Source of the DNA: Octopus vulgaris
Lineage: Eukaryota
Direction: 5' to 3'
Assembly: GCA_951406725.2 (NCBI GenBank)
Contig: OX597814.1
Coordinates: forward strand, 47,926,001-47,990,000
Length of the DNA stretch: 64,000 nucleotides
The position numbers and the translations under genes are program-made. Below are positions 2,423 to 62,495 of this stretch, one piece after another. Within the stretch, counting starts at the first letter, position 1. Each line of letters opens with the position of its first letter. The notes below the pieces were generated by a model. The model did no database searches. It saw only the letters and a program-made list of their open reading frames with translations, and was not told the DNA's origin.

Positions 2423-5334
2423 TGTGTTTTTTTTCCTCAGGCAACTACTTCAAGTAAATATTTTGATTCTTTATATTTACTCACTTTCCAGTACAAAACA
2501 GAAACCATATGTGCGTGTACATAATTGCCCACGCGTTTGTGTAAAATTGAAGAGAATATGAATTTCAGTTTAACACTGAAACCAAAATGCAAGCAATTGG
2601 CACAACCCTAAAAATTTCATCAATAAAGATTTGATATGAAAATATAAGGACCAATGCCTTATAAATTTTAGACTTTAATAAAATATTGTACTACAGGGTC
2701 GATCTGAAATTCAATATATCTTCAGTAAGTGTTTAGTGTATCACAAACAGTTATTTCGTAAGGTTTGTAACTAGTCTCTGCTCAATACAATTGTTTGACA
2801 TTTGGCTGTCACATGTCACATGTCAATTACGTCACATTGAGTTTTATTTTGCTGGTAGAGAGGTTCAATAGAACTAGGGAACTATCTACATTAAAAAGAG
2901 GAAAAACGAAATTGTACGTATCATATAGTTTTGCTTTGCCAATATAAAGGTTCAAATAAGATAGATAGCTATTTCCATAAAAAGAAAAACTAAATAGTAG
3001 CAATATAATAGTAATAACTATGATGAGTTCTCCCATTTGCATAATAAGGCAATACATTTTGAAAAAGAATATAGTCGATTTAAATGTTCGTAATACATTA
3101 ATCTTGAACGATGAAATTATAAGTTGGCTTTGGCAAGATATAAAAACAGAACTTGAAGAGATGTAATTGATTATAGCAGAGTATTTTATCCAGAACTCTC
3201 ACGTTTCTCTCTTCCACTGCCAATCCGATGATGATGACGACGACGACGACGACGACGACAACGACGACGACGGTTTCTAAATTAGGTAAGGTTTACACAT
3301 TTTGGACGTAGGTATTGCCGCTTATGTCGATACTTGATATAAAGTTTTGTCAAATTCGGTAGTATTTCAGCTAAAAACATAAAGGGGTGTAACTAAATAT
3401 AGTAATTCATTTTCCGGCATTGTACTGATCTGTCATCCAGCAATAACAAAGTACTAATAGACATCGCATACACATTACGTAATGTCATAAAATATAATGA
3501 TATAAAACCGAAACAAAACACTGCCGGAACCCAAGGGACACAGAACTGCACTCGATTATGATGGTTGATCGTATTTAAATGTCTCTGCTGTTACCGATAA
3601 GAAGGAAGACAGTGGATATGAACAGTGCTAATTTAAGGCGGTTGTTTTGGAGCCCGGCTTCTACGATATTGGTGCAGGGTTGGAACCGTTGTATTGCTGT
3701 GTCTGGACAGAGATGAGATGCTGCGTGATATCATCAAAATATAAGGGTGTGGTTCTGAGAAATTGTGGGTCGCGTACTTATAAGTTGAAACTTAAGATTG
3801 AGAGAGCGTATCAGTACAACACTCAATTCGGAAAATTGCATGTTTTGGAAATGTTGTTCTTGTACACTACACAGGTTTGGTAATTTCACATGTAGTTTTC
3901 TTTCCAGCGTTTGAGTAATTACATAAGATGCTGTAATATATCTTGTGAATATAAGGATCGCGAGGATTGGAGTTTAAAGCTCTGCTGGTGTCGATGGTAT
4001 TTAGAACGGAGGTTTTTGGTGTTGAACCCATCATCTAACCTCTATATTAGATTTGTGAGTTCTGTAACGGTCTGAATCTGTGTTGTTATTTAGAGAGGAG
4101 GATTTGTAGTTAGTGATTGTCAATGACTTTCCGTCGTCACCATGTATCGTACTCCTGTTGAGCATTAATGACACTACAATGAAAGACTTCCCCATTAGGC
4201 ATGAGCGCTCCAGCTGCTTTGCCACTCTTGTCCAATCAGCTCTTGATATTGTCCATCCATTGTGTCTACCTCTTGATCTACTACTTTATCTGGCACTGCG
4301 GCTTTTGAGTTTTTAAATTTCCCGATTCAAGTGTCTGATGAATGAGCTGAAATAGAAAGAGTTTATTTTTTAAGTCTGTTTCTGTCATCTTTGTGTGGTT
4401 TCTGCTGCTGAATTTTGATTTTCGAGAAATGTGTGATTTTGGATTATTGATTCTTGAGAATTTTAGGGACTAAAAAGACATTCATAGGAACAGTGATTCA
4501 CAGGAACAGGATCTATTTTATGAGAAGCAACGGAAAAAGAGACTTAGGATCAGCCCAAATAATGTATGCATGGCACATTGTATCATTCAGGTAGCATCTG
4601 CTAAACATTGACAACAACAACAAAAGTAAATCAACAATCAAGCGCTCAAAAGTGAGATCAACATGCTACATATAAACTGAGAATGTTTTTGCATTTTCCC
4701 TTTTGAACGCAGCTAGAAGTCTTTTTTAATAATGGAGAAACTGATCCCAGAGTACTGATGATTTCATCAAGCTTAAACAACGTAGCTCCACGTAGGCACC
4801 TGACTCAGAGTAGTTTAACTACGATGACCTGTTTGTGAAGCAGTGTCAAAGGGAATTGGATTAATCCAATAAAAAAAAAAAACTTGTTTCAAAAGTCAAA
4901 ATTTTATATTCTAGAATGCATCGTACTTTGACACCTCGAGTGGAGCGATCTCGAAATTAAATCAATCGAGAAGTGTATTGCTGTTGTTGTTTGGTGGACT
5001 GGCCCATCTGGAGAGGATTCTGTCTAGCAATTACGCAAGTTATCAAAAGGGTCACACACTTCAGAACCAAAAACTGTTGTCCGGTACCATTTAGATACTT
5101 TTCTCTTTCTCTGCTAACACGCAGTCACTAAAGAACTACATAACGTTATTAGACGATATACACAGGAGAGATATGGTATACAGTCATCCGAAGAGTTCCT
5201 AGAGACCTAAGACGAAACCAACAAAATAGAAGCCTCCACCTTAGAAAGTCTATTCCCCAACAACGATTCGATGGGAAAAACAAATTTTGGCAAATTTTGG
5301 CAAAAAGCCAGTTATTTGGGGGAAGAGCGGATGG

Positions 5335-6265: not shown

Positions 6266-6728
6266 ATGTGTTGTGTATACAATAATTTAAATAACAGTTG
6301 ACAATTTAATTATATCAGCTGTTAATTCATATATTACATTATGATACTCTACTAGCGTGTTGAGTATTATTTAACTTTGTTGCTTATAATTACAAAGAAG
6401 CTATATATATGTTGATGTGTGGGTGTTTATACATGTAAATCTAATTATATTTACAAACGCACGCGCATTTACACTCGTAAGCACTCTCGTACAAACAAAC
6501 GCCCACACTGATTTCAGGTACGCCATTTCGTAATTTTCCACGCAAGTCTTCCTGAGAAGCTACATATTTCCTATTACAAGACCAACGAACTGTGTGGAAT
6601 CCATATCGTTTGTTAAATTGCGTATATTTTTTTGACAATAAATTGTGATTAATCACATCGAAAGCCTCATGAGATCAACAAAAGCTTTATATTATTTTCC
6701 TTTGTTCAAACACATCCTTTATATATTA

Positions 6729-9830: not shown

Positions 9831-10884
9831 GAGATGGTACCAACTGTCAATGATCTCATAACGCATGTGCTCCCAAACATTGCACAAACTTTAGCAACAG
9901 TCAATGGCTCTGTGAGCGAGCCATCTCAGTTCCACGTAATGATGCTGTCAACAAAATCAACTGGGATCTCCTGTAGCTGTAGCCCGGACAAGAACAGCCT
10001 TTCAAATCCCTCGACACTGTCTTTGGTCAGGACCAGGCTGTAGTTTTTCCGAGTTCCTGAACTCTCTACAGCCACCTGAGAGGCTACCTCACCACTTAAC
10101 ACTTACAAAGGGGGCCCCAATCATGCTGCTCAGGAATCTGGATCCACTTCGTCTGTGCAATGGCACCAGACTGGTGGTGAAAGCGATGCGACCCCATGTC
10201 CTAGAGGCAACAATTGTGACTGGGAACTATAAGGGTGAGAATGTCTTCATTCCACGGATCCCGTTAATACCATATGACCTCCTCTTTGAATTTAAACGGT
10301 TCCAGTTCCCAGTGAAACTAAGTTTCGCTATGTCAATAAACAAGTCACAAGAACAGTCTCTCAAGGTTGTTGGACTTCACCTTGCTTCTCTCATGGGCAA
10401 TTATACGTAGGATGTTCGCGAGTTGGAAATCCCCATAATCTTTTCATTTATACACCAATTAAAGGACACACTCAAAACATCGTAAATTTAGAAGCTCTAG
10501 ATAATTAAACTGTGATTGATTTCCGGATTTGTTTCAATACATTTGTTTATATTCACATTATCTGGTAGAATTTTTGTTAAATGTACTTATTAACGGGAGG
10601 GGAGCACCTGCAGGCCAGTTCTTCTCAAATTTATGCATTTTCAGGTTCAAAGGGTTTCAAATAAGTACTGACAATTGAAGGTGATTGCAAAGACAAGAAC
10701 TGCCTGGTTTCTTAACAATTTTAACAGTGAGAACATCGGATAAAAATGTTATTGACATTAATAGTTTGTACCCCAGCTAATTACTGTTGAGAACTGCATA
10801 ATTCATGTTTCATTTTAGAGATTTAAAAGACATACTTAAATTTCATTATTTTCAATAACCTGGGAAACGCCGGGTTATTAACGT
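9826..10884 (+). mobile_element. Helitron 3' remnant with PIF1-family helicase pseudogene (coding part ~9826-10508)
   Basis: [79 protein letters not shown] are RepHel/PIF1 motifs broken by frameshifts and stops. 3' hairpin AATAACCTGG-GAAACG-CCGGGTTATT at 10854-10879. Confidence 0.9.
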
Positions 10885-13469: not shown

Positions 13470-13863
13470 TTTTTCTTGTTTCCAGTGACCATGCTGGAGC
13501 ACCGCCTTGGAGTGTTTTAGTCGAACAAATCGACCACAGAATTTATTTTTAAAGCTTAGTACTTATTCTATCAGTCTTTTTTGCGAACCGCTAATTTACA
13601 GGAACGTAAACACACCAACATTGGTTGTCAGGCGGTGATGGGGGACAAACACAGACAGAAAGACACACACATAGATATTTATATAAGCATATATATGACG
13701 AATTTCTTTCAGTTTCCGTCTCCCAAATCTACTCACAAAGCTTTGGTCGGCCCGAGAAAATAGTAGAAGACAACTTACTTGTCCACAGTGCCACGCTGTG
13801 GGACTGAACCCGGAACCATGTTGTTATGGAGCAAGCTTCCTACTACACAGCCACGCTTATGCC
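13470..13863 (-). mobile_element. SINE family A
   Basis: Homologous to 58195-58621 in reverse orientation. Confidence 0.88.
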
Positions 13864-13922
<59 letters not shown>

Positions 13923-14094: not shown

Positions 14095-17000
14095 TAACTC
14101 ATTAAATCTTTAACTAGTTTCAGCTCGTGAGCTACGGCCAAGCTGGGACACCGCCGTTAGCCTTTCTATACCTTCACGATTTGCAACCTTCTCTGATATG
14201 TGGCATTTAGTGAATGGGGAAATTTGATGCTGCTGCCCTCATTTGCATTTCCTGCCATGAGGTAGGCCCACCAGAAACTCTTGACGGGTGGAGGTCCAGT
14301 TTTGTTTTGGAGACACCTACATCCACCTCATTCAGGTCTCTCAGGCTTTTGTGGAGAATACTGAAGTGCTGTGGGCCCTTGAAACCCTAGCTGTTGCAGT
14401 ATCGTTTCTGTGTCTTGATAGCGAAGTTCAGATCTTCGGCATTATGTAATTCTGCTGTTTGAGTAACTTTCAATGCCAAAGTTTGATACAAGTCCTTCCA
14501 GAATTTTCCAGATATATATCACTGCGTATCTTTACCGCCATCGTTCTAGGAAGTAGAGACTTAACGCTTTTAGCGTTTTGCAATAGTTGATAAGTCGCAT
14601 TGAGACGATCTTCTTTGTGTAGCTTCGCTGGATTGCTTCGAGTTCCGCCGTTAATTTTACACTATGTGGTGACCATAGTAGGGAACAGTAGTCTAAGCGG
14701 CTCAGGACATATGCCCTCCAAAGGACATTCGTAGTTTACTTTAATCTCGTTCTGAAAGTTCTAAGGATCAATCCGGCCAGCCATCTGCATTTTATTGCAC
14801 CTAGAAAGCTGCATCATTACTCATGTCATTCACTCATTGACACTCAATTACAACGACAAGGATTTCAGTCGATCCGATCAACAGAACAGCTTGCTCGTGA
14901 AATTAACGTGCAAGTGGCAGAGCACTCCACAGACACGCATACCCTTAACGTAGTTCTCAGAGTGATTCAGCGTGATACAGGATGTGACAAGGCTGGACCT
15001 TTGAAATACAGGTATTACTCATTTATGCCAACTGAGTGAATAGGAGCTATGTGAAAAAAGTATCTTGCTTAAGGACACAACATGCCATCAGGTTTCGAAC
15101 TTATCACCTTACGATCTTGAGCCGAATACTCTAACTGCTTAACCACGCGCCTTCACATTACTCGTGTCAATGCCCTGGACGCGCACTGATTTTGATTCAA
15201 GGATTGCAATACCGCCTGGACTAGTGTATTCAGTCTACATTTCATTCAACTTTGTGTGCTGGTAACTTAGGACTTGGGATTTTCCAGCATTAAACTGCAT
15301 GTTATTGTCCTCAGTCCACTTATATATTGCATCCACTTATATATTGCACCTGTTGCAGGTGCGCAAGATCCCCAGGTTTCTGTATCCTCTGAGAGACTTT
15401 TGTATCGTCTGCATAACTAGCAAAGATGGCTATTTGAGCAGCTGAGGACATGCTTGAGTGGGCTGCTATGCATAGCAATTGTCCTAAAAGTGCCTTGTGG
15501 AACACCACCTGCTATTTGTGTTCCCTTACAGGTGGATCTATTGGCCACTACTGCCCGACTTCTATCTTTTAGAAAGTCATATAGACACTCTCCACGTTTT
15601 CCTACAATGCTGAGGTCAAACAGCTTGTGACATATTATACCATGGTCGACTTTATCAAAAGCCTTTGCGATGTCGTGGTATATAACGTCCACATTCGAGT
15701 TGTTGAGCAGCAGCTTTAACACCCAGTCGTAGTGCTGTAAGAGCTGTCTGGCAGTTTCTGCCTGGTTAAAAACCATGCTTGGTGTCAATCTGCAAGTCAT
15801 TCTCTTCAAGGAACGCAATTAGTTTCCTTCGGACAATTCGTTCCCTGAGTTTTCTGAGTGAGGTCAGAGAGATAGGCCTATAATATTTAGCATCTACTCT
15901 GCTTCCTCTTTCATGGATAGGACATATATAAATTATCCCCTCTTTCAAATTGCCTAGGAGCTTACTACTTCCAAGGAAGCTCTGAAAAAAGAAGCTGCAG
16001 TGGTTCTGCAAGAACTCGTTTGCTAGATTTGAGAAGGGTTGCTGAGAATCCATCAGGGCCAGCAACTGAGTTTGCGTCGACCTCATCTATGGCCAGTATT
16101 ACATCTTTAATGTTGATGTAATCAGTTATTGCCACTTCCTCCGCTACAGGTGTAGTGGTAAAGAACTCCACTGGTTTGTTCACTTGCCTGTGTTTTAAAG
16201 GTGTAGTGAAAACACTTTTGAACTGTTCGTGCAGTATTTCATTTATCTGCATTAGGTTTCGTGCGAGGGAGCCGTCGTTTTGGAAGAAGGACCCTATCTT
16301 GTAGTGTACTGAGGCCGCTTCTTTGACAAAATTAAAGAAAGCATTAGGGTTTGACGACTTCATATATATTTTATAACTCAGATCTCTTTGTCCGCTCTCT
16401 CTTTTTCATGGGATTATTCCAGACTTTTCTCAAACTCCATCAGTGTTGTTTTCATGCAGGACTTTTCACTATTCTTGAGATATTTGTTCAGGCAGTTTGT
16501 AGTCTTTGTCCGTTGTCCCATAAGGATATTCCTCTTACTGGGAATCTCGTTTTTGTGAGTGTTGGCCTTGTACTCCGAAACAGATTTATCGCATATAGCA
16601 TGTATTACGAACAAGAAATGTTTAAGTTTTGTGTCAATGTGTGGTGCGGAGAGACTGTTTGAGGATCTCTTTCTAAATTGAGTTCCAGTTTGCTTTATGG
16701 AAGTTCAAACTGGAAAGATTTCGTGTACTTCGTATACGCTGTACGTCTGTTGCTCCTTTTGGTCCATATATAGTTATCTCTATTTTACTGTGATCCGAGA
16801 CTAATGTCAGTGTCACTTTCATCTTATGGACGATATCCTTATTGTTTATGAAGCAGAGATCCAATATATTAGTTGTCCTGATTGGCTGGAGCATAGTTTG
16901 CTCCATGAATGACGCATTGCTACAGTTGAACAGGGACTCTACCCTTGCTTGTTGGCAGTGTGTCATTCCTGAGAGCATGAGCCCCTCGAGCTATCCCACA

Positions 17001-17490
17001 TTAGGGAAGTTGAAGTCATTCACAAGGAATACACTGTTGCTCCAGTTTGGTAACAGCTTCTATTTTTGAGAAGCAGTCTTCAAACTTGCCTGTCTGATTT
17101 GAAGCATCTGGTGGGCGATATGTAGTACACATAACAATATAAAGTGTACAGTTTTAGTATCACATACTGAATTCAAATATTCTAATTGGACCTGGGGCGT
17201 GAGATCCTCACGAATCTTTTGTGCTATGCACAAAAAAGACTTTTATTCAGCTGCTGCTCGTTTCTCAAGTGGGTGAAGCTGGTTTTTGGAAGTAGCACGT
17301 ACTACGTCTGCATGCCGTCTTTTAGAAGCAGACAGTGTGCAATTTCATTCTTTCATGCCTCTCTTTTCTTTGTCCTCCCTGTGGAAAGAAGTTCTGATTC
17401 AATTCCATACAGTTTTGAAGGGCTTGCACCAATTTATTGATAACTGAATCAATTTTTATCTCAAGTCTCGAGTTTCACGCTACTGTGATC
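14095..17490 (-). mobile_element. Decayed CR1-group LINE (APE endonuclease + RT), interrupted by a SINE
   Basis: Minus-strand motifs: YRPPDAS, NDFNFP, NILDLCF, SDH (APE); GPDGF, YRPISLTS, HGF, DVIYHDIAKAFDKVDH, GVPQGT, YADDTK (RT). 3' tail at ~14100-14165. Many stops and frameshifts; 5' boundary uncertain. Confidence 0.9.
14829..15155 (-). mobile_element. SINE (family C head, family B tail) nested in the LINE
   Basis: 14-bp TSD CATTACTC(A/G)TGTCA at 14815-14828 and 15156-15169. Removing it restores the LINE frame (..GIDTSNDAAF). Confidence 0.9.
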
Positions 17491-24349: not shown

Positions 24350-27392
<3,043 letters not shown>

Positions 27393-27554
27393 TATGTTCC
27401 AAGGGATGATAAGTTCAAAGCTGCTCAGCCACTAACACTAAAGAACTGAGAGATAAATATGAGAATGAATTAAGATTTAATCTGTAATCGTTAGTTCAAC
27501 AAAATATATTTTGTTTCGCCAATTTTATGTATTTTGTTGAGCTACCCGTTATGG

Positions 27555-35193: not shown

Positions 35194-36186
35194 CATACAC
35201 ACACACACATGCACATATATACATACATATATATATATATGATATTTGTCAGCTGTCAAGGTGATAGTTATGGGAATGTTTCAGTATTATTAGACCTCAT
35301 CAGCAAAGCCTATCATCTCAAGCTGAACATAGACAGAATGTTTTTCATATTGAAGTGCTATAAAAATTTTTGGCCAATACAATTTGCATAATTACAAAAA
35401 GCAGACTAAGGAAACTAAATCAAATAGCTTGAGGTTGTGATATCTACTTCTTAGTAGAGGGAAAATAAAAGTTTACTGGCAATTGATAGTAACTTTCTAA
35501 GAAAAAAGGGAGATAAATTCAAGAAATTATTTTATTTCTCAGAGAATTAAATTTCTATACTTAGAGGGAAATTTGATGCCTGTTTCCTTTCAATTAAGAT
35601 GCAAATTTCAACTCATTTAGAATAGTTTTGGATATATCCATCTAGTACAATCATACCCTACTTGATTTATCTTAATTCATGCAATTTGATCACTTGGGTG
35701 ATTTTCCTCATTTTTGCATTTATACTTTCCAGTCTCCAGTGCTTGTACAAAACTGAAAATATTCTATATCAGCCTGCATGACTTTCTGAATAGCATACTT
35801 AACAAAAAGTTACCTTGAAATTTTCTAGCTGTGTAACTTGCTTGTTGATTTCATGTGGCCCACTTCTTGAATAATGTTGCCCATTCCTGTGCTAGATGAT
35901 AACATTTTATATTCTGTATAAGACCATCTCATCATCAAATGTTAAAGTATCTCAATTGAAAAATCATTCATTTACAATGATTATAGGATGTCAAAACAGA
36001 CAGACACACACACATGCACACACACACACTGGGCTTCTTTCAGTTTTTGTCTACCAAATCCACTCATAAGGCTTTGGCTAGTCTGGGGCTATAGTAGAAA
36101 ACAGTTTCCCTAGAAGCTACATAATGGGACTAAACCTGGAAACCAAGTGGTTGAGAAGCAAACTTCTTAACCACACAGCTGTGTTT

Positions 36187-40553: not shown

Positions 40554-41142
40554 CAGTTTCTACCACACATACACACACAGTTACTACCACATGCACACTC
40601 CCACACACACATGCTATCATACATACATGCACTTCTACACACACATACACACATACTGACCATCTTTACACTCTTCTGTTCCAGAAACCACTTTCTCCTT
40701 CTTCTTCCACTTCTGGTCACTTCAGAAATATTACAGCACGTGGATTGTTAGCGATATTTCCTTATTTCCCTTCTTGCTTTTTAGACTTTCCTGTTTCCGA
40801 TGAAGAGCCATGCTTGAAATGTTAACAACAACTCTCTCTCCCTTCATCAAGCGTCAAATTAATGTTTCTTCTACATGTCCTCAGATTCATTTTGTTCTTT
40901 TTTTCTGTTTTTTTAAAAATTTATTTATTTATTTGGATTAATTTACATACATACATCTATACATACAAACAAACAAACAAACAAACAAACAACGGGCTTC
41001 CTTCAGCTTCTATCTACTAAATCCACTCACAAGGCTTTGGTCAGCCTGGGGCTATAGAAGAAGAGACTTGCTCAAGGTGCCACACAGTTGGACTGAACTC
41101 AAAACTACATGGCTGGAACACTAGCTTTTTAACCACACAGCA
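39945..41142 (-). mobile_element. Family A SINE split by an inserted Penelope-type fragment
   Basis: SINE tail at ~39945-40140 and head at ~40990-41142. The intervening CA-rich block ends in a + strand homologue of 18017-18217 (CCGATGA-A-GAGC-CAT-GCTT-GAAA-TGTT at ~40797-40823). Confidence 0.65.
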
Positions 41143-44418: not shown

Positions 44419-44813
44419 ACTTTTACTTTTACTTGTTTCAGTCATTTGACTGTGGCCATGCTGGAGCACCGCCTTTAATCGAGCAACTCGACCTCGGGAC
44501 TTATTCTTTGTAAGCCCAGTACTTATTCTATCGGTCTCTTTTGCCAAACCGCTAAGTGACGGGGACATAAACACACCAGCATCGGTTGTCAAGCAATGCT
44601 AGGGGGACAAATACAGACACACAAACATACATGCACACACATATATATATACATATATACGACGGGCTTCTTTCAGTTTCCGTCTACCAAATCCACTCAC
44701 AAGGCGTTAGTCGGCCCGAGGCTATAGTGGAAGACACTTGCCCAAGGTGCCACGCAGTGGGACTGAACCCTGAATGATGTGGTTGGTAAGCAAGCTATTT
44801 ACCACACAGCCAC
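44419..44813 (-). mobile_element. SINE family A, near full length
   Basis: Closely matches the reverse complement of 58195-58621. Confidence 0.92.
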
Positions 44814-48544: not shown

Positions 48545-48956
48545 ACTTTTACCTTTAACTTGCTTCAGTCATTGGACTGTGTCCATGCTGGAACACTTCC
48601 TTGAAGGGTCTTGTCATCGATCCCAGTACTTTATTTTTCATAGTCTGGTACTTATTCTATCAGTCTCTTTTGTGGAACTACTAAGTTACAGGAATGTAAA
48701 CAAACCAACACTAGTTGTCATGTGGTGGTGGGGAGACAAATACAAACTCACACACAGGTAGATATAAATACATACATACATACCTTGTATGTGTGTGTGC
48801 ACACGCTTCAATTTCTGTCTACCAAATCCACTTACAAGGCTTTGGTTATCCTGGGCTTATAGTCAAGGACACTTACCCAAGGTTCCACACAGTGGAGCTG
48901 AACCCTGAACCATGTGGTTAAGAAGTAAACTTCTTAACACACAGCCACATCTGCAC
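48545..48956 (-). mobile_element. SINE family A (older copy)
   Basis: Diverged full-length homologue. Confidence 0.85.
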
Positions 48957-50029
48957 CTTTTTATCTATCTATTCATTATTTATTTATTTATTTAAAATGG
49001 TTGGCTATTGTGAGATGTCCTTCTGGTTGAGAACCTAGTCTATCAAAGTATCTCTGCAATTGTGATGATGTGAAATTATAATGATATGATAGCAATTTAT
49101 CATTGATGCTTGTCAAGGCTGGGTTTTTTTAAATTTATTTTTATTTTTGTTGTTTTCAAGGATTCTAATGACTTTTTGCTTTCACTTGCACGAGATACAC
49201 ACATCATATGGTCTTGTGCTTGTAGAAATATAGAAAGCAGTGTTGCATAAAAACAACCAAATAGAACAATAGTTGTAAATTATTCCCAAAGGATTTTGAA
49301 GAACCAATTAGCTTAATAGCAATTTGTACCAGGCACAAATATATTCACAATCAAAGCTAATACAAATTAACAACTGTTTTTTCTATGTTATCAGTCATCA
49401 AATTGCTATTCATCTTGTCTTAGAAACTCACAAACTTTCACAAACACACATTCAGTTATTAATGCATGTTATATGTATTTGATAGACAAGTTTAACCTAA
49501 CAATGACTGCCTTTGTGCTTTACATTTTCTTTTCTTCACAGTTGGCAGGAGAATGTAGATGGTAAATTTTAAAAAAAAAAAGTGTTGATATAAAAACCTA
49601 AAAGTATTTTTTGTGTGTTTGAAGAAAATTGCAATGAGTATTTTAAATTTAGAATTTTAAGAGCACATGAATTATCTGCCTGTTTTTCTATCTATCCACA
49701 TGTGTGTATAAGTGTGTACACATGCATATATAAATTTATATTGGTGTATGTATGCATGTATACACTCACACACATCATCGTCATCATCATCATAATTTTT
49801 ATGTCTGCTTTTTCCATACTGGCATGGGTTGGATGAATCTTTTTAGGAAGTATTCTCCAGCCAACTGTCCTTCATGAAGCCAACCCTTATTTTTAAATTA
49901 TCCCTCTGGTCTTTGACTGTAAAACTGCCAAGCTGTAAGTCATATTGTTTATGCAAATATCACTACTATACAGTCAGTACCAATCAAACAAACATACATA
50001 CATGTGTATACACATGCACACACACATAC

Positions 50030-58080: not shown

Positions 58081-58194
58081 CTTATACATCAGCAATCCAC
58101 TTGCCAACACCTCTAACCAGCCCTGAAAAAATAGGCCTATGATCAAAGGCATTTTAGTCATGACCATCTTAACTTTTTAAAAATCAGCTGTATA

Positions 58195-58621
58195 GGCGCA
58201 GGAGTGGCTGTGTGGTAAGTAGCTTGCTAACCAACCACATGGTTCCGGGTTCAGTCCCACTGCGTCGCATCTTGGGCAAGTGTCTTCTGCTATGGCCCCG
58301 GGCCAACCAATGCCTTGTGAGTGGATTTGGTAGACGGAAACTGAAAGAAGCCTGTCGTATATATATATATATATATGTGTATATGTATGTATGTATGTAT
58401 ATGTGTTTGTGTGTCTGTGTTTGTACCCCTAGCATTGCTTGACAGCTGATGCTGGTGTGTTTACGTCCCCGTCACTTAGCGGTTCGGCAACAGAGACCGA
58501 TAGAATAAGTACTGGGCTTACAAAGAATAAGTCCCGGGGTCGAGTTGCTCGACTAAAGGCGGTGCTCCAGCATGGCCGCAGTCAAATGACTGAAACATGT
58601 AAAAGAGTAAAAGAGTAAGAG
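58195..58621 (+). mobile_element. SINE family A, full-length reference copy, nested in a family G repeat
   Basis: GGCGCAGGAGTGGCTGTGTGGTAAG head, GGTTCAGTCCC B-box, internal microsatellite, tail GGCGGTGCTCCAGCATGGCCGCAGTCAAATGACTGAAAC + (AAAAGAGT)n. Confidence 0.93.
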
Positions 58622-58634
58622 TATATCTTAGACT

Positions 58635-60711: not shown

Positions 60712-61075
60712 GGTGCAGACATCATTGTGTGATAAGAAGTTTGCTTCCCAACCACATGGTCCCAGGTTCAGTACCACTACATGGCACCTTGGGCAAGTGT
60801 CTTCTACTTAGCCCCAGCCAACCAAAATCTTATGAGTGGATTTGGTAGATGGAAATTGAAAGATGTGTGTGTGTTTGCATTTATCCCCTACCATTGCCTG
60901 ACAGTTGGTATTGGTTTTTGTTCCTGTAACTTAGCAGTTTATCAAAAAGATACTAATAGAATAAATACCAGGCTTAAATAATAAGTACTGTGGTCAATTT
61001 CTTTGACTAAACCCCTCAAGGTGATACTTCACTTCAGCATAGCCACAGTTCAATGACTGAAAAATGTAAAAGATG
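60712..61075 (+). mobile_element. SINE family A (older copy)
   Basis: Diverged full-length homologue ending cagttcaatgactgaaaaatgtaaaaga. Confidence 0.82.
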
Positions 61076-62267: not shown

Positions 62268-62328
<61 letters not shown>

Positions 62329-62495
62329 CATGACAAGTTTCTTTCAGTCTCTGTCCACCAAATTAATCCACAAGGCTTTGGTCAGCCCTTGGGTATAGTA
62401 GAAGACACTTGTCCATGATGTCATGCATCAAGATTGAATCTTCTACCATGTGGTTTGAAAATGGGCTTCTTACCCTTATAGACATGCCTGTGCCT
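62268..62495 (-). mobile_element. SINE family A 5' half with expanded (TA)n
   Basis: tttctttcagt..cacaaggctttggtcagccc..agaagacacttg homology. Confidence 0.75.

What the first reader, a model, noticed from the sequence alone, without database searches (positions are those of the whole stretch)
14095..14165. LINE and family A SINE share a 3' tail with a covarying hairpin (candidate partner pair)
Seen: LINE 3' end (minus) CTAACGGCGGTGTCCCAGCTTGGCCG-TAGCTC-AC-GAGCTG-AAACTAGTTAAAGA versus SINE end (~58552-58610) CTAAAGGCGGTGCTCCAGCATGGCCG-CAGTCA-AA-TGACTG-AAACATGTAAAAGA. The flanks are nearly identical; the last stem differs in sequence yet pairs in both. Known: stringent SINEs borrow the 3' stem-loop recognised by their partner LINE RT. 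Inference: this CR1-group lineage mobilised the most abundant SINE here, and structure rather than sequence of the terminal stem matters.
Basis: partly seen in the sequence, partly recalled or inferred. Interest (0 to 1): 0.7.

Follow-up and report, generated by a model that had tools for sequence, protein, structure and literature searches.

The report
Octopus SINE outlived its tail donor
A very common short repeat in this octopus-like genome ends in the same two-hairpin tail as a whole clan of long jumping genes; its tail matches best an old clan member with no intact copy found, not the one in this window, so the repeat likely kept spreading by borrowing the copying enzyme of surviving cousins.

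Summary
The shared tail is real (39/54 identical) and belongs to the LINE: 21 of 29 other copies found without it carry it. It is predicted to fold as two abutting hairpins, not one, with four-base loops. At least nine related CR1-like families carry it, and 4 of 13 pairs covary between them. The window's lineage is not the closest partner. An old family, J, matches the young SINE at all 36 core positions outside the second loop; the window's family differs at 6, family G at 2. J copies lie about 14% from their majority and no intact one was found, yet SINE copies run down to 2-6%. Best reading: the SINE took its tail from J or a J-like ancestor, then likely rode cousin enzymes (G for the main wave; two families are intact today). 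The compensatory changes arose between LINE lineages, not between the SINE and its donor. This is a known kind of system (stringent SINE/LINE pair, also in bivalves); I found no paper naming it for octopus. Earlier scan notes on this genome report a Tx1-shared tail, probably of another SINE, and an ORF1-only element that may share this tail (unchecked).

The parts
14107..17417 (-). 5'-truncated, decayed CR1-like LINE copy (old subfamily A0 of lineage A)
   Evidence: 72-75% nucleotide identity to intact copy L155; ORF1 remnant 17335-17198, ORF2 remnant 17242-14186 in several frames
14135..14156 (-). LINE tail hairpin H1 (8 pairs, one G.G mismatch, loop YCCA), predicted
   Evidence: alignment columns 3-24; family majority fold
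14121..14134 (-).
   Evidence: alignment columns 25-38
14100..14120 (-). AAAC motif and short terminal repeats ending the LINE; no poly(A)
14829..15155 (-). A second, unrelated SINE inserted into the LINE's ORF2, with a different tail
   Evidence: gap in the LINE alignment; 3' ends of its copies
58190..58625 (+). Full-length copy of the abundant SINE: head with A/B-box-like motifs, CORE-like segment, internal microsatellite, 3' body, LINE-derived tail
   Evidence: boxes and CORE likeness judged by eye only
58557..58578 (+). SINE tail hairpin H1, with an unpaired A.G at its base as in family J
   Evidence: (whole tail z -3.06)
58579..58592 (+). SINE tail hairpin H2, stem CAGTC/GACTG as in LINE families J, G and I
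58593..58622 (+). AAAC motif and terminal repeats of the type seen in LINE families C and E
44420..44813 (-). Further copy of the same SINE with the tail (others at 2048-2422, 13489-13867 and 48546-48958 on minus, 60726-61073 on plus)

Best explanation
The SINE and a clan of CR1-like LINEs share a 42-base 3' tail predicted to fold as two abutting hairpins followed by AAAC and short repeats; the SINE likely took this tail from family J or a J-like ancestor, and after J decayed it was likely copied by the reverse transcriptase of cousin families. Shown here: the tail sits at the end of every clan family sampled; stems covary between families while the first loop (YCCA), the G.G mismatch and AAA stay nearly fixed and the second loop varies freely; J is the closest match; no intact J was found; the SINE has copies much younger than J. 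Inferred from the stringent-LINE model: ORF2 protein binds the folded tail through the region between endonuclease and reverse transcriptase, nicks DNA and primes on the terminal repeats. Inferred here: the fixed features around H1 are what clan enzymes read, so a passenger with an old tail stays usable. G (2 differences, 5-6% old, the same age as the SINE's main wave) is my best guess for the later carrier. The window's lineage is a cousin that may have contributed but is not the donor.
For: Tail at a fixed place after ORF2 in searches whose query lacked the tail: lineage A 22/30, C 29/30, G 30/30, J 21/30 plus 7 with the 3' half. Ten real copies: 97.7% of cells paired, 4 of 13 pairs with two-sided change, covariation 0.321 versus at most 0.109 for slid partners; RNAalifold gives the same structure. 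Within lineage A one pair steps T-A, T.G, C-G from older to younger subfamilies. The most distant family, D, folds the same way with a different H1 loop. Differences from the young SINE outside the H2 loop: J 0, G 2, C 5, A0 6, E, B and A1 7. J lies outside the A/B/C/E/G/I clade (100/98), is a median 14% from its majority, has no non-self ORF match above 81%, and its best protein matches have short open frames. SINE groups: young 4% (10th percentile 1.6%), middle 6%, old about 20%. Literature: stem recognised generically and loop specifically in zebrafish L2 (PMC4176376, abstract and section 13).
Against: No mobilisation or binding was tested. J versus G rests on 0 versus 2 differences in 36 positions, and the shared states may be ancestral (D also has A at the base of H1; G and I share the stem), so an unsampled basal lineage could be the donor. 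No sampled LINE has the SINE's second loop (0 of 30 seen among 737 matches). In zebrafish L2 a foreign loop abolished mobilisation, which argues against free cross-use if H2's loop is the determinant. The terminal 12 nt match C (0 differences) and E (1) better than J or G (3 each). SINE copies are rarely followed by TA repeats (9/48) compared with G (14/32, p 0.02) and C (25/28, p 1e-9). Genome searches score only the best candidates (150 of 9531), so a young J-like family is not excluded. Ages rest on small, partly selected samples and heterogeneous old groups. Control (a) ignores relatedness.
Confidence: 0.58

Rival explanations
1. One unseen J-like LINE lineage carried the SINE throughout, and cousin families cannot mobilise it.
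For: Loop-specific recognition in zebrafish L2. No sampled family has the SINE's H2 loop. Searches scored only the best candidates, and other clan families were glimpsed as single copies (L105 3' end, L141).
Against: In one search the first long open frames (743-1294 aa) appear only at 57% identity, several with the 1038-1039 aa length of A1; all closer matches are short. A pattern aimed at LINE-like tails with the SINE's hairpin gave 28 SINE bodies, 2 tail-only pieces and 0 LINEs in 30 of 737; that pattern would miss a LINE with J's A at the H1 base.
Confidence: 0.2
2. The now-active family C (or its relative E) is the SINE's partner.
For: Identical terminal repeats (0 of 12 differences), and an H2 loop ending in AT like the SINE's. 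C is very young: at least 122 places identical over 200 aa, many with open frames over 1000 aa.
Against: Five core differences outside the loop. Only 577 tail matches genome-wide, 2 of the first 100 CpG-decayed, so it is too recent for SINE copies 4-20% diverged. TA-repeat flanks 24/30 versus 9/48 for the SINE.
Confidence: 0.12
3. The window's lineage A is the partner and the SINE's stem diverged from it by compensatory change.
For: Lineage A was active continuously from about 12% to under 1% divergence, so an enzyme was always available. Its side branch I has the SINE's stem.
Against: Its tails are among the most distant from the SINE (5-9 differences outside the loop; terminal 12 nt differ at 3-6). 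The youngest A1 has lost the closing pair of H2.
Confidence: 0.08
4. The LINE 'tail' is a SINE fragment that landed next to the LINE end.
For: None beyond local similarity.
Against: The tail is at a fixed offset in most copies of every family, changes in step with the ORF tree and never has SINE body between ORF and tail (class 'both' empty).
Confidence: 0.01

Closest known systems
Bivalve BivaV-SINE2 and BivaCORE-SINE1 with CR1-14_CGi (PMC4824008; section 11, passages and part 3 of 4 of supplement file 2 read; supplement file 1 could not be searched)
   Same: Mollusc tRNA-type SINEs sharing a CR1-group 3' tail with stem-loops and compensatory changes; partner inferred from sequence only.
   Different: The bivalve SINE tails in the supplement show no likeness to this tail by eye. 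Here there is a two-hairpin tail and a ladder of at least nine related LINE families with ages.
Bivalve HCD SINEs with CR1-Zenon, CR1, L2 and Nimb partners (PMC11481361; abstract and section 13 read)
   Same: 35-61 bp tail homology at 72-95% identity; some pairs have poorly matching activity profiles.
   Different: There, different partners come with different tails. Here one tail appears to persist across the loss of its best-matching LINE.
Stringent L2 elements ZfL2-1 and ZfL2-2 of zebrafish (PMC4176376; abstract and section 13 read); eel UnaL2/UnaSINE as listed in PMC3747384 (passages)
   Same: Stem exchangeable if pairing is kept, as the covariation here implies.
   Different: One stem-loop with a specific loop, tested by assay. 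Here two hairpins, one loop fixed and one variable, untested.
Octopus SINEs OK, OR1 and OR2 (Ohshima and Okada 1994; seen only as a citation and as CORE-SINE mentions in PMC4758252 and PMC4824008; the name OK is recalled) and the 'tRNA-Core' family named as a main octopus SINE (PMC8967140 passages)
   Same: Abundant octopus tRNA-type SINE with a CORE-like segment; this SINE may be one of them.
   Different: Sequences not available to compare. The passages read name no LINE partner.

Membership tests
Stringent SINE/LINE pair with a common 3' tail | SINE 3' end homologous to a LINE 3' end | tested here: met
   39/54 with the window LINE, shuffles at most 32; 37/40 core positions with family J
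Stringent SINE/LINE pair with a common 3' tail | The tail is intrinsic to the LINE | tested here: met
   22/30, 29/30, 30/30 and 21/30 in tail-free searches
Stringent SINE/LINE pair with a common 3' tail | Conserved stem-loop with compensatory changes | tested here: met
   4 of 13 pairs with two-sided change, 97.7% paired; stepwise T-A, T.G, C-G
Stringent SINE/LINE pair with a common 3' tail | Ends in short tandem repeats, not poly(A) | tested here: met
Stringent SINE/LINE pair with a common 3' tail | SINE and partner active at the same time | tested here: inconclusive
   J (14%, range 7-25%) overlaps only old SINE groups; G (5-5.6%) overlaps the main wave; small samples
Stringent SINE/LINE pair with a common 3' tail | LINE ORF2 binds the stem-loop and mobilises the SINE in trans | not testable with these tools
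   needs cell or in vitro assays
Pair 'window lineage A0 + this SINE' | This LINE has the closest tail to the SINE | tested here: not met
   6 differences outside the H2 loop versus 0 for J and 2 for G
CR1-group LINE | ORF2 with APE-type endonuclease and reverse transcriptase | tested here: met
   PF14529, PF03372 and PF00078 above cut-off in intact A1 and C copies
CR1-group LINE | Upstream ORF1, frequent 5' truncation, repeat-ended 3' UTR | tested here: met
   300-aa frame with CCCH and Myb-like hits below Pfam cut-offs; truncated copies
CR1-group LINE | RT groups with reference CR1, L2, Crack or Daphne elements | not tested
   No named references at hand; homologues are almost all unnamed. 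The CR1-like label rests on a recalled C-terminal motif.
tRNA-derived CORE-SINE (octopus OR1/OR2 type) | tRNA-like head with A and B boxes | tested here: inconclusive
   Box-like motifs by eye at 58200-58256; ARAGORN and Rfam found no tRNA
tRNA-derived CORE-SINE (octopus OR1/OR2 type) | CORE domain after the head | tested here: inconclusive
   About 20 nt resemble the BivaCORE segment by eye; no alignment run
tRNA-derived CORE-SINE (octopus OR1/OR2 type) | Identity with the published octopus SINE consensuses | not testable with these tools
   The 1994 paper was seen only as a citation; the CORE-SINE and octopus genome papers asked for by id were not held

The most novel reading that the evidence does not exclude
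An orphaned SINE survived the death of its tail donor without changing tails and was handed along between sister LINE lineages, because the clan's enzymes read one fixed hairpin while the second hairpin's loop and stem change from family to family. Two intact young families in the same genome make cross-mobilisation, and possible escape of LINEs from their parasite by tail change, directly testable.
Probability: 0.4. Interest if true: 0.62.

Novelty: new member of a known kind. Interest (0 to 1): 0.45.

Why it matters
SINEs make up about 12% of an octopus genome (PMC13282606, parts 1-2 of 3 read), and this is the commoner of the two families counted here (roughly one copy per 8 kb). The papers I searched name no enzyme that spread it. 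The clan offers a natural series of tail variants with ages, an observed wobble intermediate in a compensatory change, and two intact young families (A1, C). That would allow a direct test of how strict 'stringent' recognition is between sister LINEs, and of whether SINEs die with their partner.

Tried and rejected
SINE fragment beside the LINE: rejected. Family C as sole partner: attractive, lowered by its age, copy number and flanks. Family G as donor: favoured, lowered when I and J showed the same stem. A LINE with the SINE's exact hairpin and loop: none in 30 of 737. A LINE or SINE subfamily with C's stem and the SINE's loop: 38 matches genome-wide; of 30 seen, 28 had SINE body and none an ORF, which fits chance double mutations. 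Extra homology between J's 3' UTR and the SINE body: looked significant for one chosen pair of copies (0/500) but not for majority sequences (315/1000), so rejected. Rfam and ARAGORN found no tRNA or structured-RNA family. Public runs hold family C at 99% or more under four organism labels, but these are contigs and RNA status is a guess, so they give no evidence on expression or cross-species tail variants. The protein Atlas gave no answer. Paper searches found no report of this pairing; subscription papers, Repbase and Dfam entries were not searched.

Full report
Observation. The two strings are present as quoted, at 14160-14107 (minus) and 58553-58606 (plus). They share 39 of 54 letters without gaps; shuffled tails reach at most 32 in the window. 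The LINE copy runs from 17417 to 14107, is 5'-truncated in ORF1, broken by frameshifts, and interrupted at 15155-14829 by another SINE. The window lies in G000, 2.8 Gb. Its repeats and the nearest named protein homologue (Argonauta hians, 63%) suggest an octopus; I did not try to identify the assembly.

Is the tail the LINE's own? A search that left the tail out of the query returned 30 loci including the window. 22 carry the core motif, 21 of them 71-77 nt past the query; four more show part of it by eye and four lack it; the background is 20 of 2000. The same test gave 29/30 for family C, 30/30 for G, and 21/30 plus seven partial for J. Among 317 tails scanned (with duplicates), 158 had an ORF upstream, 128 a SINE body, and none both.

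Structure. Family majorities fold as two abutting hairpins: H1 of about 8 pairs with a G.G mismatch and loop YCCA, then H2 of 5 pairs with a 4-nt loop, then AAAC and short repeats (one three-copy group folds H1 only partly). On ten real copies, one per family or subfamily plus the SINE, 97.7% of cells pair and 4 of 13 pairs change on both sides, two in each hairpin; slid partners give at most 45%. RNAalifold finds the same fold unprompted. The shuffle control ignores relatedness, so I rely more on the ladder in lineage A, where the innermost H2 pair goes T-A, T.G, C-G from old to young subfamilies. The most distant family, D, keeps the fold with a longer H1 loop (z -2.7 and -3.0). H1's loop is nearly fixed in the clan and the SINE, whereas H2's loop differs in almost every family. 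The window copy is decayed and does not adopt the fold (z -0.3).

The clan. I label families by letter. A is a single ladder from about 12.5% divergence (A0, the window's subfamily) to intact 1039-aa copies up to 99.6% alike (A1). B is 4.8% diverged and E 8.8%. C is a recent burst: 0.3%, 577 tail matches, open frames over 1000 aa. G is 5-5.6%, with no non-self match above 93%. I is a side branch inside A, seen in two copies. J is 14% and lies outside the clade of A, B, C, E, G and I (100/98). ORF2 carries endonuclease and RT domains; ORF1 has weak CCCH and Myb-like hits. 'CR1-like' rests on these and a recalled motif, not on a tree with references.

Who gave the tail? Differences from the young SINE majority at the 36 core positions outside the H2 loop are J 0, G 2, C 5, A0 6, and E, B and A1 7; J also shares the unpaired A.G at the base of H1 (A in 19 of 21 copies). 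The SINE has kept this stem since its oldest groups and varies only the first loop base. The shared states may be ancestral, so 'J or a J-like ancestor' is what the data allow. An apparent extension of homology into J's 3' UTR did not hold for majority sequences.

Who carried it later? No intact J was found: the best non-self ORF match is 81%, and in a protein search the first long open frames appear at 57% identity (150 of 9531 candidates scored). SINE copies from 730 kb of fixed-position samples plus the window fall into groups about 4%, 6% and 20% from their majorities, the youngest tenth at 1.6%. So the main wave postdates J. G is the nearest tail and matches in age. The terminal 12 nt match C and E better (0 and 1 differences, versus 3 for G and J). 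C is too recent for most copies, and its TA-repeat flanks (24/30) contrast with the SINE's (9/48); G's rate (14/32) is also higher than the SINE's. These comparisons are confounded by age and by selection for long copies. The later carrier is therefore not settled.

Mechanism. By analogy with zebrafish L2, where the stem is read generically and the loop specifically by the region between endonuclease and RT (PMC4176376), I infer that ORF2 binds the folded tail and primes on the terminal repeats. If H1's fixed loop is the specific determinant, any clan enzyme except D's would accept the SINE, which explains its survival. If H2's loop is, cross-use should fail and an unseen J-like carrier is needed. 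I put the first at 0.58 overall. None of this was assayed.

Known and new. Tail sharing with compensatory changes is described for bivalve SINEs and CR1-group LINEs (PMC4824008, PMC4758252, PMC11481361). The passages I read on octopus repeats give abundances and ages but no partner. Eight full-text searches found no report of this pairing; the 1994 octopus SINE paper, Repbase and Dfam were out of reach, and supplements other than part of one file of PMC4824008 were not read. Earlier scan notes describe a Tx1-shared tail in a 'Nin-type' SINE; the second SINE here has a different tail and is probably that one (Tx1 not tested). One note reports an ORF1-only element with a 'family A' tail and no known partner; this clan may be that partner (not checked). 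Verdict: a real, new member of a known kind, with a partner history more complex than proposed. Interest 0.45.

Noticed in passing
L153, L154, L155 (A1) and L171-L200 (C): Two very young, intact LINE families coexist. C copies are mostly followed by TA repeats (24/30), and LINEs of different families pile up beside each other in TA tracts (L151, L152, L154, L157).
   Followed up: partly
L139:1426-1467 (minus) and other A1 copies: In the youngest A subfamily an upstream change adds a pair to H1 before H2 loses its closing pair: a register shift between the two hairpins.
   Followed up: partly
L172, L174, L175; 6 of the first 100 matches: A sub-lineage of the active family C has spread with a C.A mismatch in H2, half-way to the SINE-type pair.
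   Followed up: partly
L390/L391 (G000:C1:139852965-139853032): A C copy ends in an exact tandem duplication of the 42-nt tail unit, suggesting template slippage at the AAAC/AAG junction.
   Followed up: no
window 36032-36179, 40947-41141, 62286-62455; L075, L086, L103, L111: 48 of 114 SINE heads in the samples are not followed by this 3' body or tail; several continue into a different shared body, so the head serves at least two SINE forms.
   Followed up: partly
window 14829-15155 (minus): A second SINE with a different, poly(A)-less tail is inserted in the LINE's ORF2; probably the family that earlier notes link to Tx1 elements.
   Followed up: partly
L105 (minus, about 6540-6700), L141, L084, L157 (plus, near 5274): Single copies of further clan-like LINE ends with other H2 stems or 3-nt loops.
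   Followed up: no
L191:1560-2172, runs X1, X3, X8, X16: Family C is present at 99% identity or more in contigs under four organism labels; close relatives, mixed samples or recent transfer were not told apart.
   Followed up: no
window 9943-10410 (+): A 155-aa frame that resembles the C-terminal part of a PIF1-type helicase, perhaps a Helitron remnant (likeness recalled, not tested).
   Followed up: no
window about 24400-27430: A 3-kb TA/TG/CA microsatellite tract.
   Followed up: no
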